64,000 nucleotides of DNA from Eledone cirrhosa (lineage: Eukaryota). The translations under genes and the position numbers were made by a program. How positions within the stretch are numbered: the first letter of the stretch is position 1; each line of letters opens with the position of its first letter. The notes below the pieces were generated by a model that saw only the letters and a list, made by a program, of their open reading frames with translations, was not told where the DNA came from and ran no database searches. The stretch spans positions 29,760,001 to 29,824,000 of the forward strand of contig OZ024742.1 in NCBI GenBank assembly GCA_964016885.1, written 5' to 3'. This document shows positions 4,503 through 64,000 of the stretch, piece after piece.

Positions 4503-4540
4503 TAGCTGTCGAAACGGCCGGAGCTCAGCCGTCGAGGTCC
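4503..4540 (+). ncRNA. 3' half of a hammerhead ribozyme (same family as 63619-63712), truncated
   Basis: TAGCTGTC-GAAA-CGGC-loop-GCCG-TC-GAGGTC, followed closely by (TA)n; 5' core absent. Confidence 0.55.
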
Positions 4541-4550
4541 TGACTCCTTC

Positions 4551-4597
<47 letters not shown>

Positions 4598-4734: not shown

Positions 4735-4859
4735 AATTACGAAACAATATATATTTATAATTATATCAAACATATATCCATAGAAATATTCCTTTTACTA
4801 ATTCTGCTCCTTCTAGTAGAGCTGACATATATAGAGTTACCAGTATGTTGATCAAAGAC

Positions 4860-5090
4860 TATCTTCCTTTGTCCCTAAAGAACATACCTATACGAAAAAC
4901 TACTGATTAATAGTGTCAACTCTTTTATTAAAAGAGTTAGATGGAAGGCTTTCCACTATCATAAGAACCGCGCTGTGAAAAAGCAAGATGCACCTTCGTT
5001 TGAAACATACGGCTTCAAAACATATAAAAGCCCTCCACTCAATATCTTACCTGACTCATTTGAAAACGACCTTGTGTCACTTACCAGTGC
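4860..5090 (+). pseudogene. N-terminal fragment of a PLE ORF
   Basis: SLKNIP / YEKLLINSVNSFIKRVRWKAFHY...ETYGFKTYKSPPL...FENDL, which resembles from memory the N-terminus of invertebrate PLE ORFs; frameshifted. Confidence 0.6.
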
Positions 5091-5452: not shown

Positions 5453-5510
<58 letters not shown>

Positions 5511-5917
5511 GGGCGGTGGAACTGAGAGCCCCTCCCCCCTAATGATTATATTTTTCTCCCTAAAATACCAAAATACACAACTATTTGTATATGCGCTATA
5601 AGTTATGTACATGTTATGTAGAGATAAATGGGAGAGATAGATGTAGAGAGGGGGAGAGTTTTGTGGTAATTGATATAAATTTCTATTGATTTGCCACCAG
5701 GGCATCAAAGATTGGGACAAATACAAAGGGGGGAGTTTACATACATTTAAAAAGACGTGTAAAAACATATAACAAATTAAATTTAACAATCGAATTCCTC
5801 AATAGGGAGGGGCGTTGACATGGGTCGCACACACATCCGAAAAAATGTGCAACCCTCCTCTTCAGGAGCACAAAGAGCGGGTGCTTCCTTCCTCTTCTCA
5901 TTCTTCTCTTCTCTCAC

Positions 5918-8900
5918 CTACAGGCTGATATAGAGAGAAGGCCCATTCACTCGGGCCATTCTCGCTACTTTCACCCACCTTTCATAAAACTTGCTGGGGT
6001 AGAGCACCTCTCTCTCCATTCTGATCCTTCTTCTAAAGTGGTACTTGAAAAAAAAGACCAGTTGTTGGCCGGAGAGAAAGGTGTCTGACCTCAGCCCTTT
6101 CAACCTTGTCCACCATACAACTTCTTTCGCCATAGCTATCACACAGAGGAAAACCGCCTCTCCTTCGTTTTTGAAAGGGGGAGGCGGTTTGATCGTGACA
6201 ATGTTCTCGGTGGTCAACCGGATTGGTCCCACCCGCGACAATAGTCGTTCCACATAGCCCCACAGGTCAGCAACGCCCGGGCAGTGTACGAATGCGTGTG
6301 CGACGGTTTCCTCGTCACGCACGCATCTCAGACAGATCTTCTTCGAGGGGTCCCTACCCGGGCGCCCGTGTCTGTAGAGCTTATCCCGAACGGGTAGAGC
6401 TCCTCGGTAACATTGCCAAGCCAGGGACTTTTGGAAGTTGTCCATCGGTCCCGGGCCAAACGTCCTACCGAACAGACTGGCCAGCTCATCTTCCTCCATG
6501 CCCAGAGCCTCTCCGAGAGCGTCGTCGCACTTACTGCGCACCAACCCTCTATAGAATGTTGAGGTTGAGTCTCCACTGATTGCCGGATCCGCTTACCAGA
6601 GGGTTGTGAGCGCCTGGGCACATTCAATGTGCCAGTTGCCCACTTTTCTCGGTCTTTGCTTGACCCAGGATTGCAGCTTGGTGAGTGAGACGAGTCTCGG
6701 AAAGGCTCGCCTCACACTCAGGGCCCACACCGGCTGACCGGTGAGGAATACCTGGAGGTGCCGTAGCCTTAATGCGTGTCTACGCATCGTCAGCCACGGC
6801 ATCCCCAGCCCTCCGTTCGAAGGGTGTTGACAGCAGATGGATCTTCTCACCAAAGGAGCCCGCTTCTTCCAAAGAAATCGGAAGAGCGCGCGCTCCATTT
6901 TCTCGAGTGTTTTCTCTGGGCAAGACACGACGGTCAAGCGGTAGTAGATAACGGGCGCTATATAAGCGTTCGCCACCTCCGCTCGACCTTTCAGGGATAG
7001 TTTGCACTCGGCTCACTTCTGGGCGAGCGCAAACACCTTGCCCGTTACCTCGTCCCAGTGTTTCTCCATCTGGAGGTCCGGTCCGAACCAGACACTGAGC
7101 AGCTTCACCGGTCCCTCCATCCAGCGTCCGACGATGCCGTCAGAGGGCATCGTTTTGCCCCTCCACGTCCCGAGTTGCAAACCGACGGACTTGTCCCGGT
7201 TCAGCTTGGCTCCTGTGAACCTTTCATATTCCTCCAGTATGGTGCCGATCTTCCCGATTTCCGAGGCGCACGACACCATTACTGTCACGTCATCGGCGTA
7301 GGCCGACACCGCTTTCCGCAATCCCGGTTCCAAGGGGATGCCCTGCAACAGCTCCAGCTTCTGCAGTAGTGGCTCGAGAGCCAGCACATACAGGAGGGAG
7401 GAGAGAGGGCATCCCTGTCGGATGGATAGCGTGATTTGGAACGGCTCCGAAGGGTAGCCGTTCACCTTGACACTCGAGCAGCCCCTGAAAACGGGTCCGA
7501 AGCCTGCCGCCGCGAGCACTGCATCCAGATACCGATGGTCAACCCTATCGAACGCCTTAGATTGATCCAAGTTGATCAGGGCCCCACAAAAGCCGGGTTC
7601 GTTCCCTACCCTCTCTACGATGTATCGCATGAGGTGGAGGTTGTCGTGTATGGACCTGGGCGGGATTGCGCATGTTTGCAATTCTTCCACCAGGTTCCCG
7701 ACGACAAGCGCCACCCTCTTCGCTAACACCTTGGCCAAAATCTTTAACTCTGTGTTTAGCAGAGTTATGGGCCTGACGTTATCTATGTCATCCCCCTTGT
7801 TCTCGTCCTTCCTCACCGGCGTGACTACGCCCTTGGTCACAGAACTGGGAATTCTCTCGTTCTGTTGCCAGTTGCAGTAGACCGCCTCGAGGAGACCGGA
7901 GAACAAGCCCGGCATCGCTACATAAAGTTCGTATGGCAGACCATCGAGACCGGATATTTGCGTTTGCCGCATTGGCTCAGCGCTTCCCCTATTTCAGAGG
8001 CTGAAATCGGCCTTTCGCAGGACTTCGCCTCCCCGTCCGAGAGCCGCGCCAGACCGTCTTGGTATGGACCGAAATCCATTGCCCCACCCGGCCCGCCGTC
8101 CCTCCCGAACAGTCGAGCAAAGCGCCGTTGAAAGGCCGGGCTCATCCGCTCAGGTTCAAGGATCACGCGTCCATCCTGGTCCTTCAAAGACCGAATCGTG
8201 GACTTGTTTCCACTTTTTGCTTCTGTCACTCGGACCCAGCTAACAGCTTTGGCTCCCTCGTTACCCAGAGCACGTATTTTACTCCTGACAACGCAGCCCT
8301 CGTGCTTCGCATCAAAGAACTGGTCTAGGGCCGTTCTTGACGCCAGCACGCCGCCCACGTTGCCACTCCTAATCGCCTCTTCTACTCTATTTGTTAATTC
8401 CCTTTCATTTCTATTCCTATCTGATGCTAATTCCTGACTAAAACCTATCGATTCTATTCTAATTTCTCTCTTGAGAGAGCCCCACCACCTGCTGTTGACA
8501 ATTGCCCCCGTCAAACGCTGCTTAACTAGTGTGCTAATCCGCTTACTGTAAGCTTTGTTTGTCGGTAAAGACAAGTTTAGCTTCCAGTAACCGGGTCCCT
8601 GTCTATGAGTTCTATCAAGGTTGACCACTCCGGTCACCAACTTGTGATCCGAATAGTCAACCATGAACATTCGTGGACAGCTAAATATGTCCCTATCCTT
8701 ATTTCTAACTAGGAACCTATCTAGGTACGACCTAGATATTCCGCTGGGATTAGTCCACGTCCACAGTGGCACAGTCGGAAAATCTAGTCGATATCTATCG
8801 GCCAGATCAAATCGGCCGATTAATTGTTTGAGGCTGTTACACCCACTTCTATCGGGACATGCCCCTACATAGTCCCAACGTGCATCCAGGATACCATTCC

Positions 8901-52797: not shown

Positions 52798-53692
52798 CGA
52801 GGTGTGTCAGAAAAGTTCCAGGACTGATGTCACAAAAGATTTATTTCAATCCCAAACTTCACACTAAGAGTTTTCTCCTTCAAAGTAATCCCCCTGGAGT
52901 CTAATGCACTTTTCCATCCTTTTCTGCCAAGCTTGCATGAACTCCTGGAAGGATTCTTCCGGGATCCTCCGCAGTTACGTCGTCACGGCCTTTTTGATGT
53001 CGTCCACGTCTTCAAAACGGGTCCCCTCCGAGTCGTACTCGAAGATCCATGACTGATCACCGGTGATGACTGTCCCTAGCAAGTCTGGTTCGGTTTCAAG
53101 ACGCTCGAGGATGTCCTGGCACACTTGCATGCGTCGACCCTTCTGGTCATCGTTCAGCAGGTTTGGCACCATCTTCGCGCAGACTTTCCGCATGTCCAAA
53201 TCTTCAGTGAGAATCTTCCAGACGCTGCCCCGATTCATGCTCAGCTCATTTGCCATCAGTCGAACAGTCAGCCGACGATCGCTACGCACCATCTGTCTGA
53301 CGCGCTCAACGTTGACCTCAGTCTTGGTTGTTGAGGGTCTTCCTCTCCTGGGGTCATCTTCCACGTCCTCGCGTCCTTCTTTAAACCTCTTGCACACTCA
53401 AAAAAACGTGAGCGTGACATCGTCTTATCTCCATACATTGCTTGCAGTAATCCCAGTGCTTCTGACGGAGTTTTCAAGTTTGTTCGTTGCTCTGTGCTCA
53501 TTGCTTGACGACCTGAAACAGAGGACATGTATATAAAATTATGAAGAAAAAAGTTTGATCGCTGCAGAGAGCTAAGATTACAGTTACATACTCCAGGGGG
53601 ATTACTTTGAAGGAGAAAACTCTTAGTGTGAAGTTTTCGTTTGAAATAAATCTTTTGTGGCATCAGTCCTGGAACTTTTCTGACACACCTCG
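52798..53692 (-). mobile_element. Internally deleted mariner transposon with ~100-bp TIRs and TA TSD
   Basis: TIRs 52798-52900/53590-53692; KRFKEGREDVEDDPRRGRP...VCAKMVP...ITGDQSWIFEYD fused directly to GTRFEDVDDIK. Confidence 0.93.
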
Positions 53693-53958
53693 TATATACA
53701 AATATATATATTCGCATAAATATATGTGCACGTACGTGTGTGTAAGTCTGTGTACATGTGTGTGTCTATATGTGTATGTATGTGTGTGTATATATATATG
53801 TACGTATATGTGTGTATATGTGTGTATGTTGAGATCTGTTACCAGCGAAATCCTTCCTTCACAATTGAAGCTTATATATATATATAATATAACAAAGGAA
53901 ATGTGGTAAGGAACCAGATGGACCATATTTAGGGTAGTAGAGTGGGAAATAGGAAAAA

Positions 53959-54063
53959 TATGACCCCGACGGCAGAGCTCAAGCCGTTTCGACGGCTATT
54001 TCTGGACTAATTTAGTCCAGAAATAGCCGTCGAAACGGCTTGAACTCTGCCGTCGGGGTCATA
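53959..54063. repeat. 52-bp-arm palindrome made of the 3' half of the U3:A8 hammerhead family
   Basis: Arms 53959-54010/54012-54063 with one mismatch; sequence matches 63614-63665; (TA)n on both sides. Confidence 0.92.
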
Positions 54064-54069
54064 CTTTTT

Positions 54070-54158
<89 letters not shown>

Positions 54159-54245: not shown

Positions 54246-54580
54246 TAAAACATGGTGTTTTTTTTTTTTATTAAATATGTATTTGAAAAAAACAATATAA
54301 GAAATATGAAAGTGAGGCTGAGGAAACAACGGGCAAAGAAGAAGAAGGGAAAAAGAATACATATATATATATAAACAATAAATATATAAACATACACACA
54401 CTCAACCACGCGCATATACTTAAAAAGTACGTAGACGTATACTTTATCACATAAGCGTATATGTGTCTACAGTTCTTACCCATATATACTTTTTCTCCCT
54501 CATCTCCTTCTATATCTCTTTATATTTATTATTTTTTTCCTATTATTTATAAAATTTGTTTCAGTTGACTTATAATCCCA

Positions 54581-57168
54581 AAGTGTTATTCCATAGTGGA
54601 AGTATTACAAATTTTCTAATTTGCGGAATGATACGATCAATAATCTTTTTGCTGATATTGCCGATATCAGATTTTGATGGGCATATCAGTCTAATAGATG
54701 GGTTCGAGTTAAAGTCAGATGTATGGTCTTTCAGGTTGAAGTGCGGGCTTTTAGGCGTGAAAGGCTCAGTCCTATCTTCAATCTGGAGCTTTTTTACTAT
54801 ATCACGTGATATGTTGTTCAAGGATGTTAGTGCGGTGGTATTTGCTTTCTTATAGTTTTTTCTAAGTTCTTTTTATATGACCTGGTTATATTTATCGATA
54901 TCCATGTGGTACAAGTTACCAGTTTTGTCAGAATGGACATGGACCTTGTTTGAATTTTTCAGTTGTAGAAGGGTAGAGTCCAATCCCTTTTGGAATTCTG
55001 ATTTGTGTTTTCTGATAACACTTCCAACTAAGGGATAACACTTCCCAAGTTATTGAATGGTTCACTAGCATTGGGAATAAAAACTCAGCTTCATTCATTC
55101 AATTCGACATCGATTCTTACTATTCTTCGATTTCTCTAATTCTTTTAAACAAAGCACTGATCTTTGCCAGAAATAGATCGGATTTATCTACTGAGGAAAT
55201 CAACATCATAACTCACGTTAGAAAAACCTTACTAAACTTCCAAGAAGAATACTGGACAAGAAACACATATAACAAGCTATTCGATATTACGATCGGATCC
55301 ATGGACTCTGCTCAAGTTACAGACCTCGTTGGACTATTTCTCCTCTATAACATTCATGACTCTTTTCCCCACCTCAAAGGTGGTCTTTATCGGGATGATT
55401 GTCTATTGTTATCTAACAATCTTAGCAATTCCAATATAGAGGAAAACAAAAAACAAATTAGAAAATTCCTCAAAGACTATTACAGCCTTAGCATCACTTT
55501 TGAAAACACTTCAAAAGTAGCTAATTTCCTTGACGTTACCTTAGACCTCTCTACGAATACTTATCAACCTTACCACAAACCTAACCAGAATCTACATTAT
55601 GTACATTCACGATCTAACCACCCTGGCTCTATACTCAAGAACTTAGTATATAACATATCTCTTAGACTTTCTAAATTATCTTCCAATGAAATTATATTTT
55701 ATAATAATGCACCCTTCTACAACGAGGCCTTAACTAGAAGTGGATATAAAGAGAAAAATCTCATATATCCCCAAAACTACTATGGACCAAAACATAAAAC
55801 CTAGCAAAAACTACGAACACCAAAAAATACCATTGAAACAAATACCTAAAGTGGTTATTCCTATTACACCAAACAACCGAAAAACCACAACAACTATTAC
55901 TACACGATCTATGACCAATGTTATCAACCCACATATGAATACCAAGCACTCAAAATCTCATAGTCTACCCAAAAATAACACCAAATACAACCACGGTAGT
56001 TTACCAAATTCCACAAATACGGATACTAACCATAGGAATTCTTCTAGAACACAACACATTAATATAAGTGGTAATAAGAACTTAACTAAAAACCGCAAAA
56101 GAAACATAACATGGTTCAACGCACCCTTCAACCTGTAAACTATTGGACAAATCCCAAAAAAAATTTTTGAAATTCTACATAAACATTTTCCACCAAACCA
56201 CAGATACCACCAAATATTTAACAAATATACTGTTAAATTCTCATACTCTACATCAAGCAATCTCCAGCAAAAAATAAGCAACTACAACATTTATAAACTT
56301 TAAAATAATATGACCACACCACCACAACATAATTTAAATAGGACTGCAACCTTTTAAAAAGGCAAATAATACAATCCTTCAACCTAGAAAACACAACCAC
56401 CCAAATCACCAACACGAAAACAACAGAACACAAAATCACAATACAACCCTAGCACCAAACCACCCACAAAGCAACCTTCATTCTCCTGCTATCATTAATT
56501 ACAATAGGAATAGCTCAAGTATTGATGAGATTAGTATGGCTGTAATTGCAGAAATAGAAGCATTTGCCCCTTAAATGGCAACTGTTTGATTAATAATGTA
56601 ATATATAAATGCACTGTGTCTACTACAGACTCCAACAAAACATATATAGGATCTACATCAAACACATTTAGGAAGAGATTTTACGCAGACTCTAGTAGTT
56701 TCAACAATACTAAACTAGCTAACACCACATATTTAGCTGAAGCGGTAAATAATTATAAAAAGAAAAAAAATAGATTTCAAGTTATCGTGGAACACCATTC
56801 TACAAATAACTCCATATCTTGGGAACAGGAGGGAATGTAGATTATGTTCAGGGGAGATCTTGGAAATTACTAAATCTAAGGACGATTTATTAAATAAAGG
56901 ACATAGTTTGTAATCACAGTATACGAAGAACATTTAAATACTATAAACCTAATTAAATATTCTAAATAGCAACTCACTATAATTCTATATAGAGTGACAT
57001 TTATTACTACCCCTTTCCCCTAATTATATGCATTCATGGTTATTTTTTACCTTTTAATGTTTTAGCTTCCATAGGTTTATGCGTTAATGACTAAAGGCAA
57101 CAAGGTACACAACCACCCGTAATTGCATGAATAAATATATATCTATGTATGATATGGAAATATATTTA

Positions 57169-57199
<31 letters not shown>

Positions 57200-57257
57200 T
57201 TATGTATGTGCATATATGTATGTATGTATATATATATGTATATGTATGTGTGTGTGT

Positions 57258-57297
<40 letters not shown>

Positions 57298-57420
57298 TTG
57301 CGTGTGTGTATATGTGAGTATAGGTGTATGAGTGTTTATATATGAGTGTGTGTACATGTATGAGGAGTGTACATACACACACATATATATGTATGTGTGT
57401 GTGTATATATATATATATGA

Positions 57421-57460
<40 letters not shown>

Positions 57461-58562
57461 ATATGTATATATATATGTATGTATGTGTGTGTATATAAAT
57501 ATATATGTATATATGTGGGTATAGGTGTGTATGTGTGGATATAGATATGTATGGATATATATGTATATGATTATGTGCATATGTGTAAATGTGTATTTAG
57601 GTTTGCATCTATTTGTGCGTATGTATATTTTTGGTTTGATATCAATATAACTGCACCTCTCTCTATATGTGGTGTGAATATATGCACTTTGTAATCTATG
57701 AAATGTATGTGTTTTAACTATGCCAACATGTATTTATCTGAGTTTTATTATTTATGCATAAACATACTTGATAGTATTTTAGAGCGTATCATATGCTGTA
57801 TTATACTAAGTGCAATTTACCACACCGTACTATATTGTGTTGGTTAAGTTGTATATTATCGCATTACGTATTTAATTATCTTTTCATCTTTTAATATACT
57901 ATCTTTCCTAGCCATAACCTTAATTTATATTCACCTAAAAACTCAATACAACACTAATCACCATTTATTTTGACATTCTTTTTAACTTCACTATACCAGA
58001 TACATTCAACTATCAGTTTGACAATCCCTTTCCTCCTAATAGATTTTTATGCCAATTCTACTATTAACACCATTCAACCATTCCTTTCAAAGGGGGATGA
58101 TCTCAACTAAAGTGTATTACTTTTCATCTTAACACCATATGAAAAAAACAATTTGATTCGTTAGTTCTTTAAATACTTCCAAATAAGGACATGATACTAA
58201 CATACTAATAATTCTGAATAAAATTATTATTGAATAAAATTATTATTGCTTTTGGAAACAGCTGGTGATATGCATGTAAGTAAATATTCTCTTTATCTGA
58301 TATTTTGTAACTAACCTTATATAGATCAATAACGGAGTATAGCTACAATGTATTATCATCATCTAGAAACGATCGTAAAGCAGTGAAGTATATCTTTAAT
58401 GACATGAATTTTTGTTTCATTGTTTTAACTTATATCATGACTCTGTTTTCCTTTTAATGTTTTATTGTTTTCCGAGATTTATCTTAACCTACAACATTTT
58501 CAACATATGGATTACATCGAGTTCTTCATGCAGAATAGACCCCACAACTTACTGTGGATACC

Positions 58563-58568
<6 letters not shown>
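54581..58568 (+). mobile_element. Decayed Penelope-like element with inverted 5' segment (54581-55014, -), RT, GIY-YIG (to ~56960) and 3' UTR/pseudo-LTR
   Basis: SDKTGNLY, LKDH...RLICPSKSDIG (minus); FIQFDIDSYYSSI, GSMDSAQVTDLVG, GLYRDD, NFLDVTLDL, SNHP, RKRNITWFN, CNCRNRSICPLNGNC, NVIYKCTV...YIGST (plus); ends at (TA)n. Confidence 0.9.
58243..58386 (+). ncRNA. Decayed long-stem-II hammerhead in the PLE pseudo-LTR
   Basis: TTATTGCTT-TTGGAAA-[long hairpin]-GAAA-CGATCG-TA-AAGCAGTGA; core looks like U3:A8 with A6 mutated to G. Confidence 0.55.
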
Positions 58569-58601
<33 letters not shown>

Positions 58602-58686
58602 ACGTGTGTATGTGTGTGTATGTGTGTATATATATATGTATATATATATATGTATATATATATGTATGCGTGTGTATGTATTTGTA

Positions 58687-58799
<113 letters not shown>

Positions 58800-59296
58800 T
58801 TGTATGTATATATATTTATGTGTGTGAGTTTATTTATGTTTATATTATACTTATATATGGTTCTATGTGTGTTTACGTATATAGTTGTGTGTATACAGGT
58901 TGTATATATGCTTTTGTTTTTGTCTGTATAGTCTTACGTATGGTTTTGTATGCGTGTGTTGATTTCTTATTACGTACGAGTGCGCGCACGCATGTGTATA
59001 TGTTTGTACGTAGGTTTTATACCGATGCTCTTTTTTGTAGTGTTTATGCGTGTGTTAGTATATTTGGTGGTATGCATGTTTTTATATACGTGTGTATGCG
59101 TGTGTATGTGTATGCGTATATGTATTTTTGCACGCATGTGTATGTGAATTTGTACGTATGTTTATTTTATATTTCATATTTTTATATTTTTGTGTATATA
59201 TATATATATGTATATATAGATACATTTGTGTATGTGTTTTTATAAGTGTGTATGAGTATTTCTGCATGTTTGTGTGTGTGTGTGCGTGTGTATGTA

Positions 59297-59358
<62 letters not shown>

Positions 59359-59368
59359 AACAAGTAAG

Positions 59369-59428
59369 ACCCCGACGGCTGAGCTCAAGCCGTTTCTGGT
59401 ATTTAAATAGCCGAGCTTATCAAGGGGT
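59369..59428 (-). ncRNA. U3:A8 hammerhead ribozyme, stem II partly deleted
   Basis: ACCCC-TTGATAA-...-GAAA-CGGC-TTGAGCTCA-GCCG-TC-GGGGT; ends near (TA)n; upstream sequence homologous to 63715-63826. Confidence 0.7.
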
Positions 59429-59806
59429 AATTCCATATATAGTCAAAGAGATAATCACCAGGATTGGTCACATCACAAGTTAGTAGTAAATCTGTGATGG
59501 CAAATTGGTGAGGGAAGGGGTAGCTGAACCTGCCGATCGGAGAAAAAGGGAGAGGGAAAGGAGTAGACCCATTCATGCGGTGGTAGTGCCGGCTACAGCT
59601 GGGTGTGAGGTCAAAGAGGATACTGGGGAGGGGGAGGAAGTCGAAACGGTAAGTAGAACAACGGGGGGGTAAAACTATAAAAAGTACTGAGAGAGAAAAA
59701 AAAAAGCAAAGTCTGGTTACTAAGACTTAAGTCGCTAGGCTAAAGAAATACATTAATAAATAAATAAACAAATAAGTGAATAAAAGAATAGATAAATTAA
59801 TTTTTA

Positions 59807-59839
<33 letters not shown>

Positions 59840-60320
59840 GAAGAATAAAAAAATAAATAAAAATAAACTAGGTGGGACGGAATTAAAGGGACCCTTATAC
59901 GAGGTATAAGTGCGTGTATCGTACGGTGACGGGTCAACAAAGGGGGGGGGGGGGGGGGGGCCAAAATACTAAAGAGACTGCCACGAAATAATAAAGGTTT
60001 CTACCCCAATCACAGGGCCAGCAACCACCCAGAGCAAGAAAGTAAACTAGTACGAGAATATAATTCAGGGTCCCGCAAAAAAATACTCGTGCTAACTCTA
60101 AGGGTACCGCCACGAAACAAAATGTCTTATACAAGCTACATGAAAGATCGTACAAAGTAAAAGTAAAGAACGGAAAATTAATACAGAACCACCCCCCCCC
60201 GGGGGGGGGGGGGAGAAATACTGGATAAACGAGAAATTAAAGCAAAGATGCCACTAAGAAATATAGAAGGCACGGAAAAAAGGGACAGCGGTCGGAGAAG
60301 GGGGCAAGTATCCGAAGTCT

Positions 60321-60520
60321 NNNNNNNNNNNNNNNNNNNNNNNNNNNNNNNNNNNNNNNNNNNNNNNNNNNNNNNNNNNNNNNNNNNNNNNNNNNNNNNN
60401 NNNNNNNNNNNNNNNNNNNNNNNNNNNNNNNNNNNNNNNNNNNNNNNNNNNNNNNNNNNNNNNNNNNNNNNNNNNNNNNNNNNNNNNNNNNNNNNNNNNN
60501 NNNNNNNNNNNNNNNNNNNN
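60321..60520. other. Assembly gap (200 N)
   Basis: Run of N. Confidence 1.
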
Positions 60521-61915
60521 ACTATGGACCAAAATATAAAACCTAGTAAAATCTACAAACACCAAAAAATACCATTGAAACAAATACCTAAAGTGGTTAT
60601 TCCTATTACACCAAACAACCGAAACACCACAACAACTATTACTACACGATCTATGACCAATGTTATCAACCCACATATGAATACCAAGCACTCAAAATCT
60701 CATAGTCTACCCAAAAATAACACCAAATACAACCACGGTAGTTTACCAAATTCCACAAATAGGGATACTAACCATAGGAATTCTTCTAGAACACAGCACA
60801 TTAATATAAGTGGTAATAAGAACTTAACTAAAAACCGCAAAAGAAACATAACATGGTTCAACGCACCCTTCAACCTGTAAACTATTGGACAAATCCCAAA
60901 AAAATTTTTTGAAATTCTACATAAACATTTTCCACCAAACCACAGATACCACCAAATATTTAACAAATATACTGTTAAATTCTCATACTCTACATCAAAC
61001 AATCTCCAGCAAAAAATAAGCAACTACAACATTTATAAATTTTAAAATAATATGACCACACCACCACAACATAATTTAAATAGGACTGCACCTTTAAAAG
61101 AACAAATAATACAATTCTTCAACCTGGAAAACACAACCACCCAAATCACCAACACGAAAACAACATAATACAAAATCACAATACAACCCTAGCACTAAAC
61201 CACCCACAAACCAACCTTCATTCTCCCGCTAATATTAATTACAATAGGAATAGCTTAAGGATTAATGAGAAAGGATTAATGAGAAAGGTACCCCCAACAA
61301 CCATCTTACGTATGGTTGTAATTGCAGAAATAGAAGCATTTGCCCCTTAAATGGCAACTGTTTGATTAATAATGTAATATATAAATGCACTGTGTCTACT
61401 ACTGACTCCAACAAAACATATATAGCATATACATCGAACACATTTAAGAAAAGATTTTACGCACACTCTAGTCGTTTTAAGAATACTAAACTAGTTAACA
61501 CCACATCTTTAGCTGAAGCAGTAAATAACTATAAAAAGAAAAAATAGATTTCAAGCTATCATGGAATACCATTCTGCAAAGAACTCCATATCTTGGGAAC
61601 AGGAAAGAATGCAGGTTATGTTCAGGTGAGATCTTGGAAATTACTAAATCTAAGGACGATTTATTGAATAAAAGACAGGAACTGATTATAGTTTGTAATC
61701 ACCGTATACGAAAAAATTATAGCAACTCACTATAATTCTATGTAGCGTAACATTTGTTAGTACCCCTTTCCCCTAATTATACGCATTCATGCTTATTTCT
61801 TACCTTTTAATGTTTTAGCTTCCTTAGATTTATGAGTTAATGACTAGGGACAACAAGGTACACAACCACCCGTAATTGCATGAGTAAATATGTATCTATG
61901 TATGTATGATATGGG
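60521..61915 (+). mobile_element. Second copy of the PLE linker/GIY-YIG region (paralogous to ~55779-57160)
   Basis: Colinear near-identity with scattered substitutions and indels; shares the stop after WFNAPFNL. Confidence 0.9.
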
Positions 61916-62038
61916 AATATATATATATATATATGTATGTGTGTGTATGTGTGTATATGCGAGTATATGTGTATGAGTGTGTTTTTATGTGTGTGTGTAC
62001 ATGTATGTGTGTGTACATATATATATATATGTGTATAG

Positions 62039-62102
<64 letters not shown>

Positions 62103-62108
<6 letters not shown>

Positions 62109-62802
62109 AAGAATTCATATCTAGTAACATATATATACATACAGATGCATATCAAAGCTAGCAAATATATAGGTTTTGTCTTAATAACAGTGTGGTTCAA
62201 TGCATGGGGTTGCAGAACAATAATATAAGAGACGTAAATTATAAAATTAACTTACTTACTAAAATATCACTTCCAACTAATTAGTTTCTGGAATGGAGTA
62301 AATATATTTTCCGAAGAATAATATGGAGAAGCATTCCGTCGTCAGGAAAGTCTATTCTCATGTAAGTTTCCAGGCAAAGCGAGGACACTGGAAACTTATT
62401 AAAAAATAATTCAGTGGATAGGAAATAGCGAAGCGTGGACTGAATTCCAAGCCATTGAGAAAATCACTGCCTCTACGTCTGTGGCAAATTCAAAAAGAAT
62501 CGAACACGTGACATCGAGGTCAATCAGTGGAAAGTGGTTTGCTAATAAGACAGCGGCCTGCCTACAACCGTAGCAGCAGTCATGGCCAATATTGCTCGAC
62601 AAATAATTTGGAGATAATAATAAAGAATTCATATCTAGTAACATATATATACGTCTCTTATATTATTGTTCTGCAACCCCATGCATTGAACCACACTGTT
62701 ATTAAGACAAAACCTATATATTTGCTAGCATTGATATGCATCTGTATGTATATATATGTTACTAGATATGAATTCTTTATTATTATCTCCAAATTATTTG
62801 TC
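62103..62802 (-). mobile_element. HHR-bearing pseudo-LTR with nested inverted copies
   Basis: 62103-62235 and 62598-62650 are both reverse complements of parts of 62650-62802; abuts (TA)n. Confidence 0.75.
62269..62351 (-). ncRNA. Type I hammerhead ribozyme, palindromic stem III
   Basis: ACTTTC-CTGACGA-C.GGAAT...ATTCC.A-GAAA-CTAATTAG-TT-GGAAGT. Confidence 0.75.
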
Positions 62803-63574
62803 AGCATAATCTGTAAAGTAAGCCCCCATAATAACTGTAAAACTAGAAACATAGTATATAGCATAAGATGTACTGAGGGACAATGTAAAGATAAAAATAT
62901 AGTGTACCGAGGTGAGACAGCTCGTAGCATAGGTGAACGATTAAATGAACACTGGCGAGAACTCCAAGATAGAAAAGACTCATCAGTTCTCCACCAGCAT
63001 GCTAAAATAGAACATAAGGGCAAATTAGAGAACATAGGAATAAAAATAAAATATACACACAGAAAAGACGCAATGTTTAGACAAATCACAGAGGCAATAA
63101 ACATAAATGAACTCCAACCAAAATTAAATAGAAAACATGAATGGAATAGCAACATCACAACTTACAATTAAGAACAAAATGAAAACACACACACACATAG
63201 AACAAACAACCAACCAGTAACATGTAAATAAACAAATAAAAACACACAGACACCCGGATGTAACACTTGCGCAAACTAAGCACACAACACACACAAAAGT
63301 AAGATGGCGTAGGACAGAACAAAGGAGAGGCACAAAACAAAGAAAAGAATCCCCAGTCACTTATGAGGTCACAGAATGTGTGACGAAAGAACTTTGATAA
63401 TATATGAACAACCATCCGGTTGTGGAACCAACCAACCAACGGGAAATTTATAATAAATTGAATTGAAAGCAACTGGTGCGTGTGTTTCTTATTGGCAACA
63501 TGACCCTCCCAAAGTATAACAATATCGGTTTCAACACACGTTTTCAGATAAAGAATCTTGCTAAACAAATTCAG

Positions 63575-63577
<3 letters not shown>
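62803..63577 (+). mobile_element. 5'-truncated PLE (GIY-YIG; Naiad-like by recollection) with 3' UTR and decayed HHR
   Basis: CKTRNIVYSIRC...YRGETARSIGERLNEH...RQITEA...LNRKHEW (stop 63171); ends at (TA)n. Confidence 0.85.
63356..63398 (+). ncRNA. Minimal hammerhead, G5 mutated
   Basis: GTCA-CTTATGA-G-GTCACA-GAATG-TGTGAC-GAAA-G-AA-C-TT-TGAT. Confidence 0.55.
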
Positions 63578-63610
<33 letters not shown>

Positions 63611-63618
63611 AAGTATGA

Positions 63619-63712
63619 CCCCGACGGCAGAGCACAAGCCGTTTCGACGGCTATTTCTGGACTAAATTAGAATTTTTAGCCTGGTGAATAAATAGCCGAA
63701 CTTATCAAGGGG
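63619..63712 (-). ncRNA. Type I hammerhead ribozyme, U3:A8 core variant
   Basis: CCCC-TTGATAA-G..CGGCTATTT...AAATAGCCG.C-GAAA-CGGC-TTGTGCTCT-GCCG-TC-GGGG; GUC triplet; about 12 nt from (TA)n. Confidence 0.8.
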
Positions 63713-64000
63713 GTACTTCCTTATATGGGAAAATTGTAGTTGTCAAGAGGATTGGTTAAAATTTGTTGTAAACACAAATAAGTCTATCATGGCATTTGGT
63801 GGGAGGTAGGGGTGGCTGAACTTGCCTGTAGAACAATAGGGGAGTGAGTGGAGCGGTCAAGCGTTGAAAGAGATATGTATACAGCAGATTCTAAGGATAA
63901 GGTATGAAGTGGAGGAGGGAGGTTATAGAATAGGTAAATCGAATGAGAGTAGGAGACAATAAAAGATAATAGAAAGAAATAAAAAAAATATATAAAATTA

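What the first reader, a model, noticed from the sequence alone, without database searches (positions are those of the whole stretch)
59356..63826. Four-copy U3:A8 (UUGAUAA) ribozyme family with no coding partner in view
Copies at 63619, 59369, 53959 and 4503 keep GAAA-CGGC...GCCG-TC with a variable loop. The two that retain the 5' core both have U3:A8, so the swap is inherited. All end next to (TA)n, and ~900 nt upstream of 59428 is non-coding.
Basis: partly seen in the sequence, partly recalled or inferred. Interest (0 to 1): 0.7.

Follow-up and report, generated by a model that had tools for sequence, protein, structure and literature searches.

The report
Penelope-tail hammerhead with drifting core
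These copies are the cut-off tails of an abundant Penelope-like jumping gene, each ending in a predicted self-cutting hammerhead RNA; its unusual core pair is already known, but the pair differs between subfamilies, and short copies pile up at the predicted cut site, so the RNA likely does cut in the cell.

Summary
The hammerhead motif is real; 'no coding partner' is wrong. The motif is a type I hammerhead in the 3' pseudo-LTR of a 3.1-3.6 kb Hydra-clade Penelope-like element (PLE). It lies 0.6-1.2 kb downstream of a same-strand RT + GIY-YIG ORF. The window holds five 5'-truncated ends from three subfamilies. Only 63619 is intact; 59369 has lost half of stem II. Its '900 nt non-coding' stretch is the 3' UTR, cut by an N gap; a 97%-identical paralog runs on into the ORF.

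U3:A8 is published for PLE hammerheads. Genome-wide counts: U3:A8 2503, C3·A8 379 (an ORF-linked subfamily), U3·G8 12, C3:G8 4; an older branch has G8. So the pair changed more than once rather than being simply inherited.

Of 83 short truncations, 19 start exactly at the GUC cut, against about 4 at each neighbouring position. Four mini-insertions have both arms ending there. This suggests cleavage in vivo, yet 21 of 30 near-full-length copies read through the site. The scan noted these scars before, on other DNA of this genome (e1-10310393); I re-tested them. Cleavage was not assayed.

The parts
63603..63725 (-). Intact type I hammerhead, subfamily A: core UUGAUAA 63708-63702, long stem II, GAAA 63645-63642, stem III, predicted cut between 63623 and 63622; the element ends at the end of stem I, then (TA)n
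63726..64000 (-). 3' UTR / pseudo-LTR of subfamily A. The insertion runs about 160 nt beyond the window (about 557 nt in all), then an inverted tail of about 65 nt and (TA)n; this copy has no ORF
   Evidence: L031 603-1217 against L036
59356..59440 (-). Hammerhead of subfamily B with a 38-bp deletion of the stem II 3' strand; predicted dead
59441..60320 (-). 3' UTR of subfamily B, cut by the N gap; paralog L135 continues into the GIY-YIG ORF
60321..60520 (.). Assembly gap (200 N)
53889..54074 (.). Two-armed inverted mini-insertion of subfamily A: - arm with the 3' half and tail, + arm with the 3' half ending in (TA)n; neither arm has the 5' core
4503..4552 (+). 3' half only, older subfamily C, ending in (TA)n
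54570..57130 (+). Broken copy of another Hydra-type PLE family (42-51% aa identity to P0001) with a 5' inverted piece; not the partner of these hammerheads
60521..61890 (+). Duplicate 3' part of the same other Hydra-type PLE
62800..63171 (+). GIY-YIG-like frame of a further PLE-like family, judged by eye (no Pfam hit); unrelated to the hammerhead

Best explanation
The copies are 5'-truncated ends of a Hydra-clade Penelope-like retrotransposon whose 3' pseudo-LTR holds a predicted type I hammerhead that likely cuts only part of the transcripts. Shown: layout of pLTR, tail, ORF (RT + GIY-YIG), 0.6-1.2 kb 3' UTR, hammerhead and (TA)n; two fixed 3' ends, one at the end of stem I and one at the end of a tail about 85 nt further on; inverted two-armed insertions. 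Inferred from the Poseidon in vitro work: the protein nicks (TA)n and starts reverse transcription at those two internal sites, both downstream of the cut. Inferred here: on uncut (or re-ligated) RNA the RT reads through the ribozyme and gives long copies. On RNA cut at GUC it runs off after about 20 or 105 nt, which leaves mini-insertions that start exactly at the cut. Cleavage therefore likely trims or processes tandem transcripts but is not required at every round. That would explain why the 3:8 pair can drift while the rest of the core is kept.
For: Layout and ORF: L036, L041, L034, L136-L153. A 710-aa open frame, P0001, carries the Hydra marks RW[KR], DKT, YRDD, CxCx5C, CxxC and CxH, each conserved in 57-61 of 61 aligned relatives. 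Its model (pLDDT 90) has telomerase RT as the two best PDB matches (E about 1e-8). Copy number: 2806 first-look candidates, the best 40 at 98-100% identity. Structure: stem II has 3 pairs changed on both sides between subfamilies, and 93% of cells are paired. Twelve of 12 core and core-flanking columns are identical across four subfamily groups, against 9 of 40 upstream columns. Ends: 313 of 316 3' halves continue past GUC; 156 then run into (TA)n and 146 into the tail. Scars: in the first 100 of 843 matches, 19 of 83 truncations start at the cut against a mean of 4.3 at the 15 upstream positions. With a conservative 15 loci, Poisson p is 4e-5. L312, L314, L328 and L330 have both arms ending at the cut.
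Against: No cleavage assay and no RNA data. None of 30 near-full-length A copies starts at the cut; 21 read through the upstream hammerhead and 9 start 3-107 nt downstream. A sample of 325 ends biased to long copies showed no peak at the cut. The scar test has no control downstream of the cut, and position -15 is also raised (10 of 83). RT stalling at the three-way junction could mimic part of the peak. Subfamily D amplified with a mismatched C3·A8 core. Folding predicts competing off-states for some copies, D among them. Pfam finds no family in P0001. Hydra assignment rests on motifs, not on a tree with reference Hydra proteins. Covariation comes from essentially one branch of the tree.
Confidence: 0.85

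Rival explanations
1. Same PLE, but the hammerhead is a catalytically silent scaffold kept for protein binding and RT initiation, and the peak at GUC is an RT stall or recombination site.
For: C3·A8 amplified to at least 379 copies. No full-length copy starts at the cut. In Poseidon, HHR mutants did not affect insertion in vitro and no RNA-seq reads ended at the cut (PMC11167929, passages). The element's 3' end coincides with the end of stem I.
Against: The peak is at one nucleotide (19, against 4, 5 and 5 at the next three positions), and four loci have both arms stopping there. The catalytic G5, A6, G12, A13, A14 and the cleavage triplet are kept across subfamilies. The two largest subfamilies have a Watson-Crick 3:8 pair.
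Confidence: 0.17
2. Same PLE, but cleavage plus ligation makes a unit-length circular RNA that is the main template; this would explain read-through and tandem arrays.
For: Read-through of the site and tandem units of 3.06 and 3.6 kb (L153, L138) fit a re-ligated circle. The model was proposed in PMC4209133.
Against: Uncut linear tandem transcripts explain the same data. The scars need linear cut ends. A mismatched-core subfamily is harder to explain if both steps are obligatory.
Confidence: 0.25
3. One reading: a stand-alone, non-coding ribozyme family (retrozyme-like) with no coding partner.
For: None of the five window copies includes its own ORF. For subfamily C, most fetched 3-kb loci show no ORF.
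Against: A same-strand ORF lies upstream in 53 ORF-to-hammerhead rows (50 after dropping three repeat fetches) across A, B, D and C/E. Paralog L135 continues into the ORF. Copies have variable 5' ends, not tandem 150-400 nt monomers.
Confidence: 0.03

Closest known systems
Hydra-clade PLEs (Craig et al. 2021, PMC8557442; passages, section 11 and supplement part 2 of 59 read)
   Same: C-terminal GIY-YIG without CCHH; RWK-like, DKT, CxCx5C, CxxC and CxH motifs; (TA)n targets; sense-strand type I hammerhead near the 3' end; tail and inverted 5' pieces.
   Different: All Hydra hammerheads listed in their file S2 have C3:G8, a stem II of 3-7 bp with a short loop, and a tiny palindromic stem III. 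Here the core is mostly U3:A8, stem II spans about 55 nt, and stem III is 5 bp with a 9-nt loop. The element is longer (3.1-3.6 kb against under 3 kb).
U3-A8 minimal hammerheads of Schistosoma mansoni Cercyon PLEs (Cervera and de la Pena 2014, PMC4209133; parts 1-2 of 4 read)
   Same: U3-A8 covariant core in a pLTR, over a thousand mostly solo copies, palindrome in loop 3.
   Different: Different PLE family. Those lack helix III and are thought to act as dimers; this one can fold as a monomer. Mismatched amplified subfamilies and cut-site scars were not seen in the parts read.
Poseidon PAc of Anolis (Frangieh et al. 2024, PMC11167929; passages read)
   Same: Two internal RT start sites bounding the tail, AT-rich targets, hammerhead upstream of the start sites.
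   Different: There the ORF overlaps the ribozyme, the core is C3:G8, and no in vivo ends were found at the cut.
Natural U3-A8 hammerheads (Perreault et al. 2011, PMC3088659; passages read)
   Same: The same covariation, described as active in vitro (citing Przybilski and Hammann 2007, which was not held).
   Different: Not tied to this element; the passages read do not cover C3·A8.
Metazoan non-LTR retrozymes (bioRxiv 10.64898/2026.07.22.740005; part 1 of 5 and passages read)
   Same: Type I hammerhead, PLE origin.
   Different: They are non-coding tandem monomers; this family has its own ORF and dispersed truncated copies.

Membership tests
Type I hammerhead ribozyme | Three stems round the core, stem I open, stems II and III closed | tested here: met
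   for 63619; not met for 59369 (deletion) or the half copies
Type I hammerhead ribozyme | Core U4 G5 A6 A9, G12 A13 A14, A15.1-U16.1, H17 | tested here: met
   12 of 12 columns identical across subfamily groups
Type I hammerhead ribozyme | Watson-Crick 3:8 pair | tested here: met
   U3:A8 in 63619 and 59369 and in 2503 of 2898 matches; not met in 379 C3·A8 matches
Type I hammerhead ribozyme | Self-cleavage at the predicted site | not testable with these tools
   Indirect support only: excess of truncations at the cut
Type I hammerhead ribozyme | Match to an Rfam hammerhead model | tested here: not met
   0 matches at gathering score; the E-value mode was not run
Penelope-like element, EN+ | Single ORF with telomerase-like RT and GIY-YIG endonuclease | tested here: met
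   P0001, motifs, best fold matches are TERT; Pfam silent on P0001, 2 of 61 relatives hit GIY-YIG
Penelope-like element, EN+ | Pseudo-LTRs from partial tandems, inverted 5' pieces, optional tail | tested here: met
   L036, L138, L153 and others
Hydra clade | RWK and DKT motifs, CxCx5C linker, CxxC and CxH, no CCHH | tested here: met
   RWR 27, DKT 109, CNCPDRSIC 564, CNLC 662, CKH 690 in P0001; absence of CCHH judged by eye
Hydra clade | Insertion into (TA)n | tested here: met
Hydra clade | RT phylogeny with reference Hydra proteins | not tested
   Reference proteins were not available as stored sequences
Hydra clade | Length under 3 kb; compact canonical hammerhead | tested here: not met
   3.06-3.6 kb units; extended U3:A8 ribozyme against file S2
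Non-LTR retrozyme | Non-coding, tandem short monomers each with a hammerhead | tested here: not met
   ORF-linked, variable 5' truncation

The most novel reading that the evidence does not exclude
This lineage is a fossil record of a working PLE ribozyme. It cut in vivo, leaving two-armed scars at GUC, and its core pair passed through all four states (C3:G8, U3·G8, C3·A8, U3:A8) in amplified subfamilies. Even the mismatched C3·A8 form cleaved, probably with help from the element's protein: 4 of 11 truncations with a D-type 3' end start at the cut, and that end goes with C3·A8 in 18 of 24 full copies of a state-selected sample.
Probability: 0.35. Interest if true: 0.68.

Novelty: new variant of a known kind. 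Interest (0 to 1): 0.45.

Why it matters
What PLE hammerheads do in vivo is open. One in vitro study found them dispensable for insertion and saw no RNA ends at the cut, and another suggested they may merely ride on PLEs. This family gives thousands of young copies, a monomer-folding ribozyme and four natural core states on nearly the same backbone. It also has a countable genomic signature of cleavage. That makes the question directly testable with short transcripts.

Tried and rejected
Rfam at gathering threshold: no match. Pfam and PDB sequence searches on P0001: no hit; the profile search of PDB gave one irrelevant hit at E 0.34.

Sequencing runs: no RNA holder listed, which is no evidence either way. 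No reads were laid, so expression, RNA ends and circles stay untested.

First pair count used a mis-set structure string and was replaced.

The idea that cleavage sets the 5' end of full-length copies was rejected (0 of 30). The + strand PLE fragments in the window were rejected as the partner: opposite strand and 41-52% aa identity. The four C3:G8 matches in the A/B/D context were rejected as a subfamily: three are D copies with one change.

The short hammerhead-region tree put D basal to both A and B, while the ORF tree puts A basal, so the order of core changes is not settled.

Literature: six searches listed no paper on PLE truncation at the cut or on an amplified C3·A8 core. The library lacks most subscription papers. 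Przybilski and Hammann 2007 and Martick and Scott 2006 were not held, so the size of the G8A defect is recalled, not read. Supplements of PMC4209133 and of the bioRxiv preprint were not seen and may list related motifs.

Full report
Observation. The window comes from a 3.0-Gb genome rich in (TA)n. The 3' half GAAACGGC-loop-GCCGTC occurs five times: 63623-63645 (-), 59374-59396 (-), 53968-53990 (-), 54032-54054 (+) and 4511-4533 (+). UUGAUAA precedes two of them. The 63619 copy folds as a type I hammerhead with a four-pair stem I extended past an internal loop, a stem II of about 55 nt and a five-pair stem III (stem II and III probabilities 0.98 and 0.97). The 59369 copy lacks 38 bp that its subfamily has; this removes the 3' strand of stem II, and the fold is lost. 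The 53949-54074 stretch is a palindrome of two half copies.

The partner. A DNA search of the genome gave 2806 candidates, the best 40 at 98-100% identity. Twenty 10-kb stretches showed that longer copies extend upstream into an ORF on the same strand. L036 reads pLTR with hammerhead, tail, ATG, RT, GIY-YIG, about 780 nt of 3' UTR, hammerhead, (TA)n. The 63619 insertion is 557 nt of that UTR plus an inverted tail. The 59369 insertion matches the UTR of subfamily B at 87% over 1 kb up to the gap. A paralog at 97% identity over 4.9 kb (L135) continues, and its GIY-YIG frame stops about 280 nt beyond the gap edge. The 4503 copy belongs to an older group, C/E (261 matches), five members of which were found linked to a related ORF.

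The protein. P0001 (710 aa, L149) has 403 relatives among 7996 scored candidates, the listed ones mostly at 35-42% identity. The Hydra-clade motifs of Craig et al. (section 11) are present and conserved in the 61-row alignment. The model has pLDDT 90 and its two best PDB matches are telomerase RT. Pfam does not recognise it. I file it as a Hydra-type PLE by motif; no tree with reference Hydra proteins was made. Every Hydra hammerhead in that paper's file S2 has C3:G8 and short stems, so the ribozyme here is a variant. U3-A8 itself is published for Schistosoma PLEs and other natural hammerheads.

Constraint. On 27 chosen copies, 93% of cells in the hammerhead structure are paired, and stem II has three pairs changed on both sides. 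These changes fall on the branch between A/B/D and C/E, so they are few independent events. Majority letters of A, B, D and C/E agree in 12 of 12 core columns, 8 of 8 stem III, 7 of 8 stem I, 13 of 33 distal stem II and 9 of 40 upstream columns.

The 3:8 pair drifts. Exact patterns in the A/B/D context give U3:A8 2503, C3·A8 379, U3·G8 12 and C3:G8 4. C3·A8 is a subfamily (D) with its own diagnostic changes and ORF. In the C context 15 of 261 matches have G8. A search not keyed on the core found an older branch, E, with both C3:G8 and U3·G8. On a tree of the last 620 nt of the ORF (53 rows; three repeat fetches dropped), D lies between A and B. A+B as one clade is rejected (p-AU 0.003); D as one clade is not (0.28). 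The short hammerhead-region tree orders them differently. So the state changed at least twice in this lineage, and whether 63619 and 59369 inherited one swap is open. From recalled biochemistry, an unpaired 3:8 strongly lowers cleavage; the paper on C3/G8 exchanges was not held. In Poseidon, single C3G or G8C changes abolished cleavage but not insertion.

Ends and scars. Of 316 3' halves, 313 continue past GUC; they end in (TA)n at the end of stem I (156) or run into the tail (146). This matches the two internal RT starts of Poseidon. None of 30 near-full-length copies starts at the cut, and 21 read through it. A pattern selecting copies truncated within 15 nt upstream of GUC gave 843 matches, and I examined the first 100. 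My filter called 73 truncations and 27 internal indels; ten of the 27 were mis-flagged truncations (nine at -15, one at -1) and were moved by hand. Of 83, 19 start at the cut against a mean of 4.3 elsewhere. Counting paired arms once and dropping two rows explainable by CpG decay leaves 15 loci (Poisson p 4e-5). In L312, L314, L328 and L330 the whole insertion is two inverted arms, one from each RT start, both ending at the cut, between (TA)n runs. Limits: no control downstream of the cut, a second bump at -15, only chromosomes C1-C2 sampled, and no peak in an earlier sample biased to long copies.

Mechanism. Shown: anatomy, ORF linkage, two 3' ends, core states and excess of ends at the cut. 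Inferred: nicking of (TA)n and priming at both RNA sites; run-off on cut RNA; read-through on uncut or re-ligated RNA. Uncut linear and circular templates cannot be told apart here. Confidence is about 0.95 for the PLE pLTR identity, about 0.8 for some cleavage in vivo, and about 0.35 for cleavage by the C3·A8 form.

Verdict. Not a partner-less ribozyme family, but a new variant of a known kind. Interest 0.45 comes from the scars and the four core states, not from U3:A8.

Noticed in passing
window 14919 (+), 48146 (+), 13735 (-), 54239 (-), 62345 (-): Other hammerhead-like motifs with C3:G8 cores, three of them one family. A loose descriptor found 7 in the window against 0-2 in ten shuffles.
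   Followed up: partly
window 52800-53690: Mariner-like element with terminal inverted repeats and a broken transposase (HTH_32, E 9e-8).
   Followed up: partly
window 55453-60320, 60521-62070 and L135; window 62121-64000 and L032: Segmental duplications at 97-99% identity 48 and 75 kb downstream, plus a local duplicate across the gap; the gap may mark a collapsed repeat.
   Followed up: partly
window 63606-63725 and all subfamilies: GCCGUC occurs twice, which allows an alternative hairpin over GAAA. The 5' core can also pair across the cut site. These off-folds are favoured in some D copies. Loop 3 keeps a GAGCUC palindrome that could allow dimers.
   Followed up: partly
L151 452-2596 (-): Intact 714-aa frame of a different PLE-like element (RVT_1, E 3e-15).
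   Followed up: no
L189 1413-1579 (-): Copy with a C-type 5' strand and an A-type 3' strand of stem II and a U3·G8 core; possible recombinant or intermediate.
   Followed up: no
window 4850-5090 (+) and 35529-35714 (+): Further short Hydra-type ORF fragments.
   Followed up: no
window 5500-7500 (-): GC-rich stretch that looks by eye like a LINE-type RT fragment.
   Followed up: no
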